In this document: in pieces, positions 45,001 to 48,000 of the stretch | Layout of the letters: every line of letters begins with the position of its first letter | Numbering within the stretch: position 1 is the stretch's first letter | Assembly (NCBI GenBank): GCA_038998335.1 | Contig: JAVZHQ010000001.1 | Span: 608,001 to 672,000, forward strand | Length of the DNA: 64,000 nt | Direction of reading: 5' to 3' | Origin: Candidatus Aenigmatarchaeota archaeon | Lineage (GTDB): Archaea > Aenigmatarchaeota > Aenigmatarchaeia > CG10238-14 > SCSR01 | Program-made: the position numbers

Positions 45001-48000
45001 CCATAAACAGGACCAACCGCATGGATAACATATTTTACTTTTAGGTTTCCTCCTGAAGTTATTCTTGCTTCCCCAACAGGACAAAAACCTATTTTATCGC
45101 ACTCTTCCTGAATTTTTGGTCCGCCTTTTTTTCTTATCGCTCCTGCTACTCCTCCGCCAAGCTTAAGTTTAGAGTTAGCAGCGTTAACTATTGTATCGCC
45201 TTCGAAATCTGTTATATCACCTTGAATAAGTTCTAAAATGCTTTTGTTAATTTTTACTTTCATAACGCTCAAAAATTTAGAGAAAAATACTGTTTAAATA
45301 ATTTTCGGTAAAAATTACTTTACATGAAAAAACTAACTACCAAACAATACGTTTCAATATTTTTTTTAATACTCCTTGCGTTTTTCTTTTTAAGTTTTGC
45401 AGAAATAGCAGTAGAAGGTCCTTATGGAGGAGCGACTAAGAGTTATGGTTGGAAGATTCAGATTTATGATTCTGTCTATCTAAGAGAGTATCACTTTTTT
45501 CTATTTTATTTAACAATACCAACACTACTTTCAATTTCTATAATCTTAGTTGGGTTTGATTTAAGATTAATCAGTATTTTAATTTTAGGGTATTCAATTG
45601 GTAGTATTTTAGAAGACTTTTGTTGGTTTGCTTTTAACCCTTACTACGGAATCCACAAATTTTCGCCAGAATTTTATACCTGGACCATTTGGATAAATGT
45701 TTTAGGTTTAAAAATCCCTATACTGTACTTCATTTACTCACTAATAATTCTTGCTGATGTTTTCTTTATTTTAAAAATAATCCCAATTATCGAAAAACAT
45801 AAACAAAATAAACCAGAAATGTTCGGATTTTAATTTAGCGCCCTCGCTGGGATTTGAACCCAGGACCTACCGGTTAACAGCCGGGTGCTCTACCACTGAG
45901 CTTTCCTCGTAATTACTACGAGGGCTGCGAGGGCTTAATATATTTTTTAACAACTTGTTTTCATCAATTAAATATTCTTCTATACTTTTATAGAATTTCC
46001 TTAAATTATTAGGCGTTATAACAAAAACTTTATAACCTCTTTGTTGTAAATCCTTTATCTTCTTTTTTAATTTCATAGCTTTATCAAAACCTTTCCACAT
46101 GCTACATTCTACAATAAGGTTACCAACCTTGAAATCTGGGAAATAATATTTTTTATTGACATTTATACAAGGTTCGTATTGATAATTTATTCCAAATTGA
46201 AATAATGTATCAGCAATTTTCTTTTCTAAAGTATTTCTGACGAGTTCACCACGTTTGGTTTTAAATTTGTAGCTTCCAATCTTCTTAAACCGTTCATATT
46301 GCTCTAAGAAATATTTTTCACCTAATTCTTTTCTAAGTTTTTTATGTAACCTGCTAGAAGCTTTTTTCATCTTAATTAGATTTTTTCTGAATGTTTTGCT
46401 TCTAACCTTCTTTAAGTAGCTGGCTTTACCACCAATCCTTTGTTTCCAGTTTTTATCTAACCGTTTTTGAATAATTTGCACGATATCAACTTCTTCTAAA
46501 CCTAAAAATTTCATGAGTTTGTTAAGAACATATCGAGAAATAGGTCTACCTTTATGTTTATAATAATATATTGCAGATTTCACTACATTTAAGGTTTTTG
46601 CCAACTTTCTTTCACTACCAGCCTTTTTTATGGCCATGTTAATTATGTTTTTCTGATCTTTTAATTTAAAATACATAATAAAAACTTTGTTTATTACTAT
46701 TTAAAGTTACTTCCAACTGAGCTACGAGGGCTTTTAAACTACTAATATATTATTAGAAAAAATTTTAAAAGTAAGTTTAATCTAAGGTAAGAAATCCTTT
46801 TTCTCTATTTTTTCTGGCAAATAGTTTTCTGTTATAAATTTCAGGCCTTTTCCTGACAAAGCTTCCAACTCAGCTTTTATTTTCCTTTCAATCATAAGCT
46901 TAAGCTCTTTTTGCCAGACTGGATGTTTGAACCATTCATAATTCAACATTTCTTTTGCTCTTTTTATGTCAACCTCTTCTGCTTTTATAGTAAAATCTTT
47001 TAAACCAAACTTATCTATGTCGCTTATCGTTAAACCTAAAAATTTTGCGTTTGGTGTACCAAGTCTGTCAGAAACATGAGCTAAGCTCATCGAGCCATAT
47101 TTTATAACCGAATAAATGTACCAACCGTAACTGTCTGCATCAGTAAAAACATAAACTGGAAGGTTAAACTCTGTAGCCAATCTTTGAATTAATCTTCTTG
47201 TCCCTCTTGCAGCCTGACCTTGAGTTGTGACTAAAATACACTTGTGTTTTTTCCAAAACTTATCCTCATGCAACCTTTCAAAAGCTGCGTTCTTTTCTAT
47301 AACAAGAATAAAATTAGCGTTAACTTTTTTAAATTCTAAATCTTCTACGTTGCTTGGGATAGCCCAACCCCCTGAACCAAGCTTTGACCAATCAATAGTG
47401 TCTCCTCTATCTCTAATTATCACATCACCTACAACCCTTCCTCTTACGTCAGCGTTTAAATGTAGCTGTTCTCTTAAAACATCTAGCATAACTTCTAAAT
47501 CAACAACTATAGGATCACTTTCATTTTGTTCGTTGAACGTGTTTTCCTGAGAGTTTGGTAAAGTTCTTTTCAAGGCATAAAACAAATCCCTTAGGCTTGT
47601 ATGAAGGTTTTGCTCTAGTAATTCCTTACAAAAAGCAGCAACTAACATAGTTTGCATAAATTTCTTTGCATGTCCAGTGTGAAACAAAAATCTTTTTGCA
47701 GTTTTTTCTCCTAAGGTTAGCATTCCTGTTTTTTTATCGTAAATAATATTAGAAAGTGAACGAATAGGAACTTCTATGTTTGGGTTCTCTTTTTTCTCTA
47801 TATCACTTAGAACTTTTTTCCCTAAATCTTCAAGTTTTTTCTTCGTTTCTTTCATTTCCAACTACCTCTTTTAAAGTTGTCTGCTTTACCTTTTTAATTT
47901 TTTCCTCTTGCTTTTCTTTTTCAATTTCTTCTTCAGCTTTACTTTCCATTTCCTCTATTGTTAAGTCAACTTTTTTCTTTATCATTTCTTCCAATTTCTT

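What a model noticed while it worked through the whole genome (the two positions that open the first line are those of the whole stretch)
45839..46731. A new HTH + PD-(D/E)xK nuclease family lodged in tRNA-Asn(GUU) genes, between a duplicated tRNA 5' piece and a tRNA with [...]
g00713 (269 aa, no Pfam family) belongs to a DPANN-wide family of ~260-aa proteins with an N-terminal Cro/C1-type HTH and a C-terminal restriction-endonuclease-like domain resembling the homing endonuclease I-Bth0305I. Here and in relatives it sits in one fixed setting: [22-nt copy of the 5' end of tRNA-Asn] - TTTAAATA box - ORF - [complete tRNA-Asn(GUU) carrying a 15-nt insert in the D arm]. Patchy occurrence marks it as a mobile, homing-type element that targets tRNA-Asn and goes with a small insert, like the LAGLIDADG cassettes at protein genes.
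Evidence so far: Places (minus strand): 5' piece 654710-654731, ORF 653867-654676, tRNA-Asn 653839-653925 with insert 653901-653915; without the insert the acceptor/D arm is regular; Rfam sees only the 3' 56 nt (rna.tsv). 81 homologues at E<=1e-5, none with a Pfam nuclease family; invariant E168, P180-D181, E190, K206. AF2 model (29 seqs, pLDDT 89) hits Bax1 nuclease, I-Bth0305I catalytic domain (3r3p), AF1548, T7 endo I; N-terminus hits C.Esp1396I/Cro HTH. 15 of 371 Aenigmatarchaeota genomes have a match (E<=1e-10), in 12 of 170 genera. All 5 full-length loci (G000,G001,G065,G142,G037) and the broken copies in G094 and G132 are followed at once by tRNA-Asn(GUU); 4 show the upstream 5' piece matching their o [...]
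(Added by a program. Inside this text positions count along the whole contig: contig position 608,001 is position 1 of the stretch shown here. "Call 12" and the like, gene names such as g00115 and contig names such as C1 are that model's own, and its searches are not shown. The text may have been shortened before it was handed on; [...] marks where a part breaks off. The agent that wrote the report below was given it as the finding of a first reader that could run no searches.)

Follow-up and report, generated by a model that had tools for sequence, protein, structure and literature searches.

The report
Endonuclease cassette that splits tRNA-Asn
A small selfish DNA cassette, coding for a new type of DNA-cutting enzyme, has inserted into an asparagine tRNA gene of a tiny hot-spring archaeon and repaired the gene with a spare front end that holds a mini-intron, which shows one way such introns can arrive.

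Summary
On the minus strand lie a 22-nt tRNA-Asn 5' relic (46731-46710), a TATA box, a 250-aa HTH + nuclease ORF, and a tRNA-Asn(GUU) with a 15-nt insert.

New here:
1. Same-genus genomes G137 and G133 have an uninterrupted tRNA-Asn at this spot, with no ORF. The window therefore carries an 821-bp insertion (46715-45895). The relic is the resident gene's displaced 5' end. A second empty/filled pair is G124/G129.
2. The insert fits the strict bulge-helix-bulge rule once the register is moved by one base. The intron is 45917-45903, between U8 and A9, and removing it gives a tRNA that ARAGORN recognises.
3. The family reaches further than tRNA-Asn. Thirty-four of 34 DPANN loci read sit before tRNA-Asn, most with a D-loop intron at 15/16. 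Paralogues sit before tRNA-Lys, Phe and Pro, and inside 16S and 23S rRNA insertions.
4. Decayed ORFs and ORF-less alleles that keep the mini-intron exist (G129, G125, one metagenome contig).
5. The nuclease domain is closest in sequence to T7 endonuclease I.
6. An extra copy of the acceptor 5' strand in the leader goes with every 8/9 or 9/10 intron, and in folding lets the splice helix form.

Best reading: a homing-type endonuclease cassette that delivers its own intron. Activity, target and splicing are untested.

The parts
46732..46781 (-). Resident intergenic and promoter region between the Topo VI-A stop (46784-46782) and the tRNA start. It is AT-rich, with TTTTAAAA at 46770-46763.
   Evidence: It is shared with the empty-site genomes G137 and G133, where it runs straight into an uninterrupted tRNA-Asn. 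The promoter role is inferred.
46710..46731 (-). Relic 5' piece of tRNA-Asn. Positions 46731-46716 are resident nt 1-16. Positions 46715-46710 (TGGAAG) are the decayed D-loop/D-stem part that travels with the cassette.
   Evidence: The first 16 nt are identical to tRNA nt 1-16 and sit at the same place as the tRNA start in G137/G133. The 'GGAAG(C/T)AA' tail is shared with relics in other loci.
45895..46715 (-). The insertion as a whole: 821 nt relative to an uninterrupted tRNA-Asn gene.
   Evidence: Comparison with G137 C11 and G133 C8. The exact crossover cannot be placed within the repeated 16 nt.
46698..46705 (-). TATA-like box TTTAAATA of the ORF, 22 nt before the ATG. This spacing suggests a leaderless mRNA (inferred).
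   Evidence: A TATA-like box follows the relic in 23 of 32 related loci, at fixed offsets of about 20 or about 28 nt from the relic start.
45926..46676 (-). ORF, the family-homologous 250 aa. As listed, the frame runs on to 45867 through the extra copy and the tRNA.
   Evidence: In L004 a 3-nt spacer (here 2 nt) puts the stop on tRNA nt 8-10. The stop lies inside the tRNA or its intron in 28 of 32 related loci.
46473..46655 (-). N-terminal Cro/C1-type HTH domain, about residues 8-68.
   Evidence: Sub-threshold Pfam YdaS/Cro hits. HTH_3 in 12 of 55 members. Foldseek to C.Esp1396I and HipB, probability 1.00.
46005..46247 (-). C-terminal PD-(D/E)xK nuclease domain, about residues 144-224. E151, D181 and E190 are invariant. 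S192 stands where T7 endo I has K67. K206 is invariant.
   Evidence: Profile against PDB: T7 endonuclease I, E 8.7e-5, with E20/D55/E65 aligned. phrog_29037 'endonuclease', 2.3e-7. Foldseek to Bax1, I-Bth0305I and AF1548.
45928..45934 (-). Extra copy of the 7-nt acceptor 5' strand (GCCCTCG) in the leader. The spacer CA is at 45927-45926.
   Evidence: A like copy is present in 7 of 7 loci with an 8/9 or 9/10 intron, and also in L005. In folding it pairs with the 3' acceptor strand and frees the real 5' strand for the splice helix.
45918..45925 (-). tRNA-Asn exon 1, nt 1-8.
   Evidence: The BHB rule gives a single strict solution among 6 deletions that restore a D arm. ARAGORN on the spliced form.
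45903..45917 (-). 15-nt mini-intron between U8 and A9. H' = GAGG (45908-45905) pairs with nt 3-6.
   Evidence: The same position and rule hold in L003 and L004 (Asn) and in L008 and L012 (Lys). L006 (Phe) and L010 (Lys) have it at 9/10.
45839..45902 (-). tRNA-Asn(GUU) exon 2, nt 9-73 including the discriminator. CCA is not encoded.
   Evidence: Rfam RF00005, 48.9 bits. ARAGORN after intron removal.

Best explanation
This is a homing-type selfish cassette lodged inside a tRNA-Asn(GUU) gene.

Its single protein combines an HTH DNA-binding domain with a T7-endonuclease-I-like PD-(D/E)xK nuclease domain. I infer that it cuts uninterrupted tRNA-Asn genes around the D arm. Repair from a cassette-bearing copy would then paste in the 821-bp unit.

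The resident 5' end (nt 1-16) is pushed upstream and left as a relic. The relic serves as the left homology arm. Its decayed D-arm tail sits like a BRE just before the cassette's own TATA box.

The cassette restores the tRNA by bringing a replacement 5' part. That part carries a 15-nt bulge-helix-bulge mini-intron between U8 and A9. As a result, neither copy of the presumed target is intact in DNA, which would give self-immunity, while the host splicing endonuclease can rebuild a normal tRNA in RNA.

ORF and tRNA overlap, so they are presumably co-transcribed from the cassette promoter.

The intron pairs with the acceptor 5' strand, so a second copy of that strand in the leader occupies the 3' acceptor strand until splicing. 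RNase P then removes the leader.

Shown: the insertion, its borders, the relic's origin, family-wide recurrence, decay stages, the fold, and the fit to the BHB sequence rule.

Inferred: cleavage, the target, immunity, co-transcription, splicing, and the role of the leader copy.
For: Empty and filled sites:
- G137 and G133 (same genus) have the same Topo VI-A 3' flank and promoter region running into an uninterrupted tRNA-Asn 5' half, with no ORF and no 8/9 intron. G000 and G134 are filled.
- A second pair lies in another genus and another context: G124 (AsnRS stop, then intact tRNA) against G129 (relic at that very spot, then a decayed ORF).
- The relic itself has no intron. The intron therefore came with the cassette.

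Stages of decay:
- Intact ORFs: G000, G134, G094.
- Internal deletion: G129, 169 aa, and an X8 contig joint 46281->46557.
- Stop codons: G073 and G066.
- ORF lost but extra copy and mini-intron kept: G125 (no convincing tblastn match, best E 0.65 over 14 aa) and an X8 contig joining 45944->46783.

Association with the ORF: the 8/9 intron with the extra copy occurs in 4 of 4 ORF-bearing Asn loci of the family, against 1 of 22 ORF-less Asn3-like genes.

Patchiness: 19 of 371 phylum genomes match.

Paralogues lie in rRNA insertions. In L009 the 16S insertion is a strict BHB intron with its own TATA box. L016 lies in 23S.

DPANN-wide layout:
- A tRNA-Asn follows the ORF in 34 of 34 loci read.
- The relic matches at >=12/16 in 18 of 32 loci, reached by 0 of 500 shuffles in each.
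- The stop codon lies inside the tRNA or its intron in 28 of 32.

BHB rule: 27 of 31 interrupted loci have a strict 4-bp solution by script, and 3 more by eye.

Nuclease fold and motifs.

Splicing enzyme: an EndA gene is present in the genome.
Against: No activity, target or cut site is known. The canonical Lys of the ExK motif is S/T in this family.

In 10 of 41 loci the tRNA has no intron in nt 1-26, and three of these (L033, L043, L053) have no intron at all by eye. Immunity by intron therefore cannot be general.

The relic carries nt 1-16 uninterrupted, so a target would have to reach beyond nt 16.

A second intact tRNA-Asn (C1:165506-165577) is not invaded.

The thermodynamic model pairs the three 5' bulge bases in 5 of 7 acceptor-type introns (unpaired probability 0.00-0.05). 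A textbook BHB is therefore not the predicted ground state there.

The genome shows only one EndA hit, with a 193-aa frame. Its subunit type, and thus its tolerance for relaxed motifs, is unknown.

Protein identity of 37-46% across DPANN phyla with constant synteny would also fit long vertical descent with many losses.
Confidence: 0.65

Rival explanations
1. It is a miniature integrative element. A circular form would carry an attP-like copy of tRNA nt 1-16 (with the intron) and recombine site-specifically with the chromosomal tRNA (attB). This would rebuild the gene and leave a direct repeat, as proposed for a Caldiarchaeum tRNA-Thr insertion. The protein would act in recombination or junction resolution rather than in homing.
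For: A direct repeat of tRNA nt 1-16 lies at both borders, and the ORF sits immediately before the rebuilt tRNA on the same strand. The same layout and this model are in Sugahara 2012 (PMC3293823; abstract, Results and Discussion read). The nuclease domain resembles a Holliday-junction resolvase, T7 endo I and phrog_9019.
Against: No integrase or recombinase family is found in any of 55 members. 821 bp leaves no room for another gene. The relic's tail is conserved with the cassette while its first 16 nt follow the host, which fits a crossover by homology. Paralogues inside rRNA insertions, one a mapped BHB intron, are typical of homing endonucleases.
Confidence: 0.15
2. It is one giant BHB intron. 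The upstream piece would be the true exon 1, and everything up to the mini-intron's 3' splice site (about 815 nt, ORF included) would be spliced out. The inner exon copy would be a by-product.
For: The relic also holds CCTC + GT|A, the same 5' half of the motif. In the short-relic class the relic ends exactly at the 15/16 splice site. The 16S paralogue has the layout exon, about 20 nt, TATA, ORF, BHB 3' half. ARAGORN with introns allowed joins the relic to the tRNA end, although as a bogus tRNA-Leu.
Against: No inner helix can form next to the long-range H helix (by eye). Relics decay: L046, L047, L051, L056 and L059 carry changes that break acceptor pairing. They are therefore not under tRNA constraint. 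The local hairpin is predicted with P = 0.78-1.00.
Confidence: 0.05
3. It is a host gene pair, not a mobile element. The protein would be a tRNA-Asn-linked regulator or nuclease inherited vertically across DPANN and often lost.
For: Constant synteny with tRNA-Asn in 34 of 34 loci across several phyla, at 37-46% identity. An AsnRS gene is adjacent in L003, L004, L007 and G125. L007 has neither relic nor intron.
Against: Presence or absence at one site within two genera. Broken copies. An intron-less relic of the resident gene next to it. Paralogues inside rRNA insertions.
Confidence: 0.08
4. This tRNA copy is a decaying, non-functional duplicate. The 15-nt insert and extra copy would be debris, and the genome would rely on the other tRNA-Asn.
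For: A second archaeal-type tRNA-Asn(GUU) exists at C1:165506-165577. There is no RNA evidence.
Against: The exons are intact and fold to a normal cloverleaf. The insert obeys the splice rule in all 7 acceptor-type loci, with compensating changes between tRNA-Asn, Lys and Phe. The ORF-less alleles G125 and the X8 contig keep the intron and the leader copy.
Confidence: 0.07

Closest known systems
Caldiarchaeum subterraneum tRNA-Thr(GGU) locus: 5' fragment + 1.87-kb insertion + tRNA with a new intron (Sugahara et al. 2012, PMC3293823; abstract, Results and Discussion read)
   Same: A 5' tRNA fragment (nt 1-27) lies upstream. The insertion has an 813-bp ORF directly before the rebuilt tRNA on the same strand. 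A new intron (24/25) sits inside the duplicated part. Population heterogeneity includes an uninterrupted allele.
   Different: That case is a single locus in one population and includes a 545-bp repeat. Its ORF was called a 'DNA-binding/recombination' protein by a classifier, and the model was pNOB8-type integration. Here the unit is 821 bp, the ORF has a nuclease fold, and the layout recurs in about 45 loci across DPANN. Whether the two ORFs are homologous could not be tested, because the supplements were unreadable.
Free-standing homing endonuclease plus ORF-less intron ('collaborative homing', cyanophage psbA/F-CphI and T-even phage cases; recalled, no call)
   Same: The endonuclease gene lies beside, not inside, a small intron that interrupts the presumed target in the neighbouring gene.
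   Different: Those cases involve phage group I introns in protein genes. Here the intron is an archaeal protein-spliced BHB intron in a tRNA. The cassette lies inside the gene, with a duplicated exon.
T7 endonuclease I / Pfam Phage_endo_I (PF05367)
   Same: Profile-to-sequence match at E 8.7e-5, with E20, D55 and E65 aligned to E151, D181 and E190. Six of 55 members give sub-threshold Pfam hits.
   Different: No member reaches the Pfam cut-off. K67 is replaced by S/T. An N-terminal HTH domain is added. T7 endo I is a junction resolvase, not a site-specific enzyme.
I-Bth0305I (PDB 3r3p), homing endonuclease with a PD-(D/E)xK-type catalytic domain
   Same: Restriction-endonuclease-like catalytic fold (Foldseek E 5.7e-3, probability 1.00), within a mobile, site-specific context.
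   Different: Fold-level likeness only. No sequence match was found. It is a phage group I intron enzyme.
LAGLIDADG endonucleases of archaeal rRNA BHB introns (for example the Thermoproteales 16S introns, PMC4496867; search listing and abstract only)
   Same: An ORF inside a BHB intron of 16S or 23S rRNA, as for the paralogues in L009 and L016. L009 even has a LAGLIDADG ORF in a second insertion.
   Different: A different protein fold and family. My three literature searches listed no non-LAGLIDADG endonuclease in archaeal BHB introns. This is a limited search.
I-Ssp6803I, PD-(D/E)xK homing endonuclease in a cyanobacterial tRNA-fMet intron (recalled, no call)
   Same: A PD-(D/E)xK-type enzyme tied to a tRNA gene.
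   Different: It is encoded inside a self-splicing group I intron in bacteria. No relation was tested here.

Membership tests
Homing endonuclease element (functional class) | Site-specific double-strand cleavage of the uninterrupted allele | not testable with these tools
   Needs protein and substrate. Only fold and motifs are known.
Homing endonuclease element (functional class) | Presence/absence polymorphism at one precise site in close relatives | tested here: met
   G000 and G134 filled against G137 and G133 empty. G129 against G124.
Homing endonuclease element (functional class) | Sporadic distribution with degenerate and lost copies | tested here: met
   19 of 371 genomes. Broken ORFs in G129, G073 and G066. 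ORF-less remnants in G125 and an X8 contig.
Homing endonuclease element (functional class) | The element interrupts its own target, so the host is immune | tested here: inconclusive
   Both copies of tRNA nt 1-26 are interrupted in the window. However, the target is unknown, and 10 of 41 loci have no intron in nt 1-26.
PD-(D/E)xK nucleases / Phage_endo_I (PF05367) | Core residues E...PD...(D/E)xK | tested here: inconclusive
   E151, P180-D181 and E190 are invariant. The K position is S/T, and K206 is invariant on the next helix.
PD-(D/E)xK nucleases / Phage_endo_I (PF05367) | Score above the Pfam gathering cut-off | tested here: not met
   No hit at all for the window protein. Six of 55 members have sub-threshold hits, best E 3.2e-4.
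I-Bth0305I-type family | Sequence membership and the family's own catalytic motif (motif name recalled, not from a call) | tested here: not met
   3r3p is absent from the profile search of PDB sequences at E<=10. There is only a fold match at E 5.7e-3.
Archaeal BHB intron | A 4-bp helix flanked by two 3-nt bulges, each cut after its 2nd base, giving an exact mature tRNA | tested here: met
   H is CCTC/GAGG, and the bulges are GT|A and AA|A. This is the single strict solution among 6 deletions that restore a D arm. The product is recognised as tRNA-Asn. I checked the rule on the 30/31 intron of L003, whose cut product equals the intron-less arm of another gene.
Archaeal BHB intron | The bulges are unpaired in the predicted structure | tested here: inconclusive
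   The 3' bulge is unpaired with probability 0.92. The 5' bulge is unpaired with probability 0.01 in the window, and the minimum-energy fold is a continuous 7-bp hairpin.
Archaeal BHB intron | Actual excision by EndA and ligation | not testable with these tools
   No RNA run is listed for this DNA. An EndA gene is present.
tRNA-integrating elements (SSV / pNOB8 type) | Encodes a tyrosine-recombinase-type integrase | tested here: not met
   No integrase family in the window ORF or in any of 55 members.
tRNA-integrating elements (SSV / pNOB8 type) | Direct repeat of part of the tRNA at the two borders | tested here: met
   tRNA nt 1-16 are repeated at 46731-46716 and, split by the intron, at 45925-45895.

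The most novel reading that the evidence does not exclude
This cassette family is a working vehicle that plants bulge-helix-bulge mini-introns into tRNA genes. Each invasion would swap the gene's 5' part for a copy pre-loaded with an intron, and that intron outlives the endonuclease gene (G125, the X8 contig). This would be a concrete and repeatable route for the gain of non-canonical archaeal tRNA introns, and a source of 5' tRNA fragments, the raw material of split tRNAs.

In addition, introns that pair with the acceptor stem would depend on a leader-borne surrogate acceptor strand that holds the 3' strand until splicing. That would be a new cis-acting device in tRNA maturation.
Probability: 0.4. 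Interest if true: 0.85.

Novelty: new variant of a known kind. Interest (0 to 1): 0.75.

Why it matters
How archaeal tRNA genes acquire introns at odd positions, and how split tRNA genes arise, are long-standing questions. A 2026 preprint on Asgard tRNA introns (10.64898/2026.10.13.758758; passages read) tested several routes and states that how the introns arrive remains open. The one earlier clue was a single Caldiarchaeum locus (PMC3293823).

Here a whole protein family, spread across DPANN, is found at all stages: empty site, fresh insertion, decayed gene, and intron left behind. That makes the route directly testable.

The finding also adds a non-LAGLIDADG endonuclease family to archaeal rRNA and tRNA introns. 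It offers compact, possibly very specific DNA-recognition modules (HTH + nuclease) aimed at tRNA and rRNA genes. It also points to a possible leader-assisted splicing trick.

Tried and rejected
**RNA evidence.** No RNA holder was listed for this DNA. All 11 holders are hot-spring DNA runs from 5 studies. Expression and splicing therefore stay open.

**Read laying.** Only contigs could be laid. The X1 joint 45895->47181 (side 20) and the X10 joint 45868->46055 (side 21) were too short to use. No circular-junction evidence could be sought in contigs.

**Five-armed mature tRNA.** I considered a mature tRNA with the extra copy as the true acceptor strand. I rejected it because the spacer between the two copies varies (0, 1, 2, 3, 3, 6 and 14 nt), and position 8 would be C, G or absent.

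**Splicing from the extra copy as exon 1.** Rejected for lack of an inner helix, and because the product would have a wrong nt 8 in most loci (by eye).

**Searches that failed or gave little.**
- The search for related loci with the 55-row alignment failed because it had no conserved stretch. It was repeated with 12 rows.
- The first BHB script used too loose a D-arm test and was replaced.
- The leader-shuffle control is weak. Shuffled leaders of the same composition still give mean P(H) of 0.35-0.87.
- The careful tree search did not finish, so only the quick tree is used. The rRNA-intron rows are long branches of unsure place.

**Loci left unresolved.** The L011 (tRNA-Pro) and L013 (His-like loop, broken ORF) inserts were not resolved. 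The intron ends in L016 (23S) were only roughly placed.

**Weak phylum matches.** G319, G283, G204, G289 and G118 (E 1e-5 to 7e-4) lack the HTH domain or look spurious. They were left out of all counts.

**Homology to the Caldiarchaeum ORF.** This could not be tested. The supplements were unreadable, and the listing of cluster members gave no organism names for 10 distant hits.

**Earlier scan notes for look-alike stretches.** None were found.

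
Full report
**What is in the window**

All features lie on the minus strand.
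- The Topo VI-A gene ends at 46782.
- After a 50-nt AT-rich spacer comes a 22-nt piece (46731-46710). Its first 16 nt are tRNA-Asn nt 1-16.
- TTTAAATA follows at 46705-46698.
- The ATG at 46676 starts an ORF listed as 269 aa.
- Only the first 250 aa (to 45926) are family sequence. The frame then reads through an extra copy of the acceptor 5' strand (GCCCTCG, 45934-45928), a 2-nt spacer, and the tRNA itself (45925-45839), down to 45867.
- Rfam sees only model positions 9-63 of the tRNA, and ARAGORN sees nothing.
- The neighbours are Topo VI B and A, a membrane protein without a Pfam family, and Macro-domain, GT2 and free-standing LAGLIDADG genes.

**The insert is a rule-conforming mini-intron between U8 and A9**

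The archaeal splice motif is a 4-bp helix flanked by two 3-nt bulges. This is stated in the review PMC4090602 (passages read). That each bulge is cut after its second base is recalled.

I checked the rule on an independent case, the second intron (30/31) of the tRNA in L003. There, H CAAC/GTTG with a 5-bp inner helix cuts out 20 nt, and the remainder is exactly the intron-less anticodon arm of the other tRNA-Asn gene of G000.

Applied to the window, H = CCTC (nt 3-6) paired to GAGG gives bulges GT|A and AA|A and an intron at 45917-45903. This is the only strict solution among 6 deletions that restore a D arm. The product is called tRNA-Asn(gtt) by ARAGORN.

**The cassette is an insertion, and the upstream piece is the resident gene's own 5' end**

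Two of five other genomes of the genus, G137 and G133, have the same Topo VI-A end and spacer. In them the spacer runs into an uninterrupted tRNA-Asn 5' half, with no ORF and no 8/9 intron. They carry other introns, at 30/31 and 38/39.
- G134 is filled like the window, at 97% identity, starting exactly at the tRNA 3' end.
- G136 lacks the tRNA at this place.
- G135 (69% complete) gave no match.

Relative to the empty sites, the window has 821 extra nt (46715-45895).

A second pair lies in another genus and another context. In G124 the tRNA follows the AsnRS stop directly. In G129 the relic stands at that very spot, followed by the TATA box, a 169-aa remnant of the ORF, the extra copy and the intron-bearing tRNA.

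Because the relic runs through nt 8/9 without the insert, the intron came with the cassette.

**Stages of decay**
- Intact ORFs: G000, G134, G094.
- Internal deletion: G129, and one metagenome contig (joint 46281->46557).
- Stop codons: G073, G066.
- ORF gone but leader copy and 8/9 intron kept: G125 (no convincing tblastn match, best E 0.65 over 14 aa), and a contig of run X8 that joins 45944 to 46783 with 25 nt between. That contig looks like a deletion between two AATATATTA repeats.

Among tRNA-Asn genes of this type in the family, the 8/9 intron with the extra copy occurs in 4 of 4 with the ORF, against 1 of 22 without. The 22 are 20 loci plus G137 and G133. G127, G128 and G132 are near-identical in the stretch shown.

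**The family at large**
- 81 homologues by single sequence; 199 by profile.
- 895 cluster representatives at E<=1e-3, 146 at <=1e-10 and 60 at <=1e-30.
- Named members are Micr-, Woese-, Pace-, Nano-, Iain- and Aenigmatarchaeota.

A scan of one genome per species gave 40 loci. Five duplicate my phylum loci, and L063 is cut off at the contig end. Of the 34 read (L042 is identical to L041), 34 have a tRNA with a CTGTTA anticodon loop right after the ORF. Rfam at gathering level reports few of them, because they are interrupted.

In 28 of 32 loci the ORF's stop codon lies inside the tRNA or its intron: at nt 8-10 in 9, at nt 13-15 in 9, and further in for 10. A separate tRNA promoter therefore has no room.

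An upstream relic matching the locus's own tRNA at >=12/16 is found in 18 of 32 loci, reached by 0 of 500 shuffles in each. A TATA-like box follows it in 23 of 32, at an offset of about 20 nt (short relic, nt 1-15/16) or about 28 nt (long relic, nt 1-26).

The window belongs to the long class. Its tail TGGAAGTAA matches the 'GGAAGCAA' tails of the other long relics. The tail thus travels with the cassette, while the first 16 nt follow the host. That is the signature of a crossover by homology inside the relic. The purine-rich tail just before the TATA box may serve as a BRE (inference).

**Introns in the replacement part**

Of 41 loci:
- 10 have no intron in nt 1-26.
- 7 have one at 8/9 or 9/10. 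These are Asn in L001, L003 and L004; Phe in L006; Lys in L008, L010 and L012. All are strict.
- 22 have one at 15/16. Eighteen are strict by script. L038, L046 and L047 are strict by eye, because my D-arm test required A21. L005 has only 3 of 4 pairs.
- 2 have one at 17/18.

In the 15/16 class, H is the D-stem 5' strand paired to a GAGC in the intron, with inner helices of 3-10 bp. In the short-relic class the relic ends exactly at this site.

**Other targets**

In Aenigmatarchaeota, 14 of the 19 matching genomes hold clear family ORFs. Six sit before tRNA-Asn, three before tRNA-Lys(CTT), and one each before tRNA-Phe(GAA), tRNA-Pro(TGG) and a His-like tRNA. One lies inside the 16S gene and one inside the 23S gene.

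The 16S insertion (L009) lies just 5' of the GTGCCAGC block. It starts with a TATA-like box and is a strict BHB intron (H GGTA/TACT, inner helix GATAG/CTATC).

A quick tree of 42 rows separates an Asn clade (37 rows, including the Phe locus), a Lys+Pro clade, and the two long rRNA branches. The short-relic 15/16 group is one clade (15 rows, SH-aLRT 96). Broken, duplicate, partial and weak loci were dropped.

**The protein**

AF2 gives pLDDT 92.7. The N-terminal part is a Cro/C1-type HTH.

The C-terminal domain matches T7 endonuclease I by profile (E 8.7e-5). E151, D181 and E190 align with E20, D55 and E65. The lysine position is S/T, and K206 is invariant. Further matches are phrog_29037 'endonuclease' (2.3e-7) and, by fold, Bax1, I-Bth0305I and AF1548. 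No integrase family appears.

**The extra acceptor copy**

All 7 loci whose intron pairs with the acceptor 5' strand, plus L005, have a second copy of that 7-nt strand 0-14 nt upstream. It matches each tRNA's own sequence, whether Asn, Lys or Phe. I saw none in the D-loop loci I checked by eye.

In minimum-energy folds, the extra copy pairs with the 3' acceptor strand in 8 of 8. In partition-function folds, the splice helix H forms with P 0.78-1.00 when the leader is present, and <=0.03 when the RNA starts at G1.

I read the copy as a surrogate strand that lets the motif form. RNase P would later remove it.

Caveats: the 5' bulge is predicted paired in 5 of 7, and shuffled leaders of the same composition still give P(H) of 0.35-0.87.

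**Comparison with what is known**

The nearest described case is the Caldiarchaeum tRNA-Thr locus (PMC3293823). It has the same layout, and its authors explained it by plasmid-type integration.

The combination seen here was not listed in my three literature searches (a limited search). That combination is a nuclease-fold ORF, recurrence in rRNA insertions, relics whose 5' part follows the host, and a full decay series.

This fits a host that splices such introns.

**Verdict**

It is a new variant of known kinds of element. Interest 0.75.

Noticed in passing
window 42905-43711 (-): A free-standing 268-aa ORF with a LAGLIDADG_3 match just at the Pfam cut-off (22.8 against 22.5 bits), 2 kb from the cassette.
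   Followed up: partly
window 41574-41852 (-): The genome's only match to the tRNA-splicing endonuclease catalytic domain (PF01974, 95 bits, 193-aa frame) lies 4 kb from the cassette. Its subunit type was not determined.
   Followed up: partly
L002 (G134) 3-1394, oriented: In G134 the Topo VI-A gene next to the same cassette carries a large in-frame insertion with LAGLIDADG-like motifs (intein-like). The window's copy lacks it.
   Followed up: no
G000 contig C5 8883-8958: A third tRNA-Asn(GTT), with a U1-A72 pair and an encoded CCA, sits on a 9.2-kb contig. It looks bacterial, so the contig may be contamination or a foreign element.
   Followed up: no
L027 about 2395-2475; L041/L042 about 2400-2520; L053 about 2400-2540: Partial direct repeats of the tRNA-Asn 3' end lie 70-150 nt downstream of the tRNA. 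They look like att-type scars of other small insertions at the 3' side.
   Followed up: no
L009 (G029) 2433-3046: The same 16S gene has a second insertion, with a 190-aa LAGLIDADG-type ORF. Two different endonuclease families therefore sit in one rRNA gene.
   Followed up: partly
L011 (G101) 1306-1379 and 2226-2326, oriented: A complete tRNA-Pro(GGG) stands directly before the cassette, and an interrupted tRNA-Pro(TGG) stands after it. The insert in the latter was not resolved.
   Followed up: partly
L086 (G076), L087 (G073 C16), L091 (G097): ORF-less tRNA-Asn genes with 10-16-nt inserts near D-loop position 20/21. This is a further non-canonical intron site in this family of genomes.
   Followed up: no
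L042; L057, L061, L062: L042, filed under a Chthoniobacterales bacterium MAG, is identical to the Woesearchaeota locus L041 in the stretch compared. Three loci are filed under 'uncultured Methanosarcinales'. These look like mis-binned DPANN contigs.
   Followed up: no
window 45838-46731 (G000 C1 653838-654731): ARAGORN with introns allowed reports a 'tRNA-Leu(cag) with an 800-nt intron' running from the relic to the tRNA end. This is an artefact caused by the duplicated 5' piece, and it recurs in L002-L004.
   Followed up: yes
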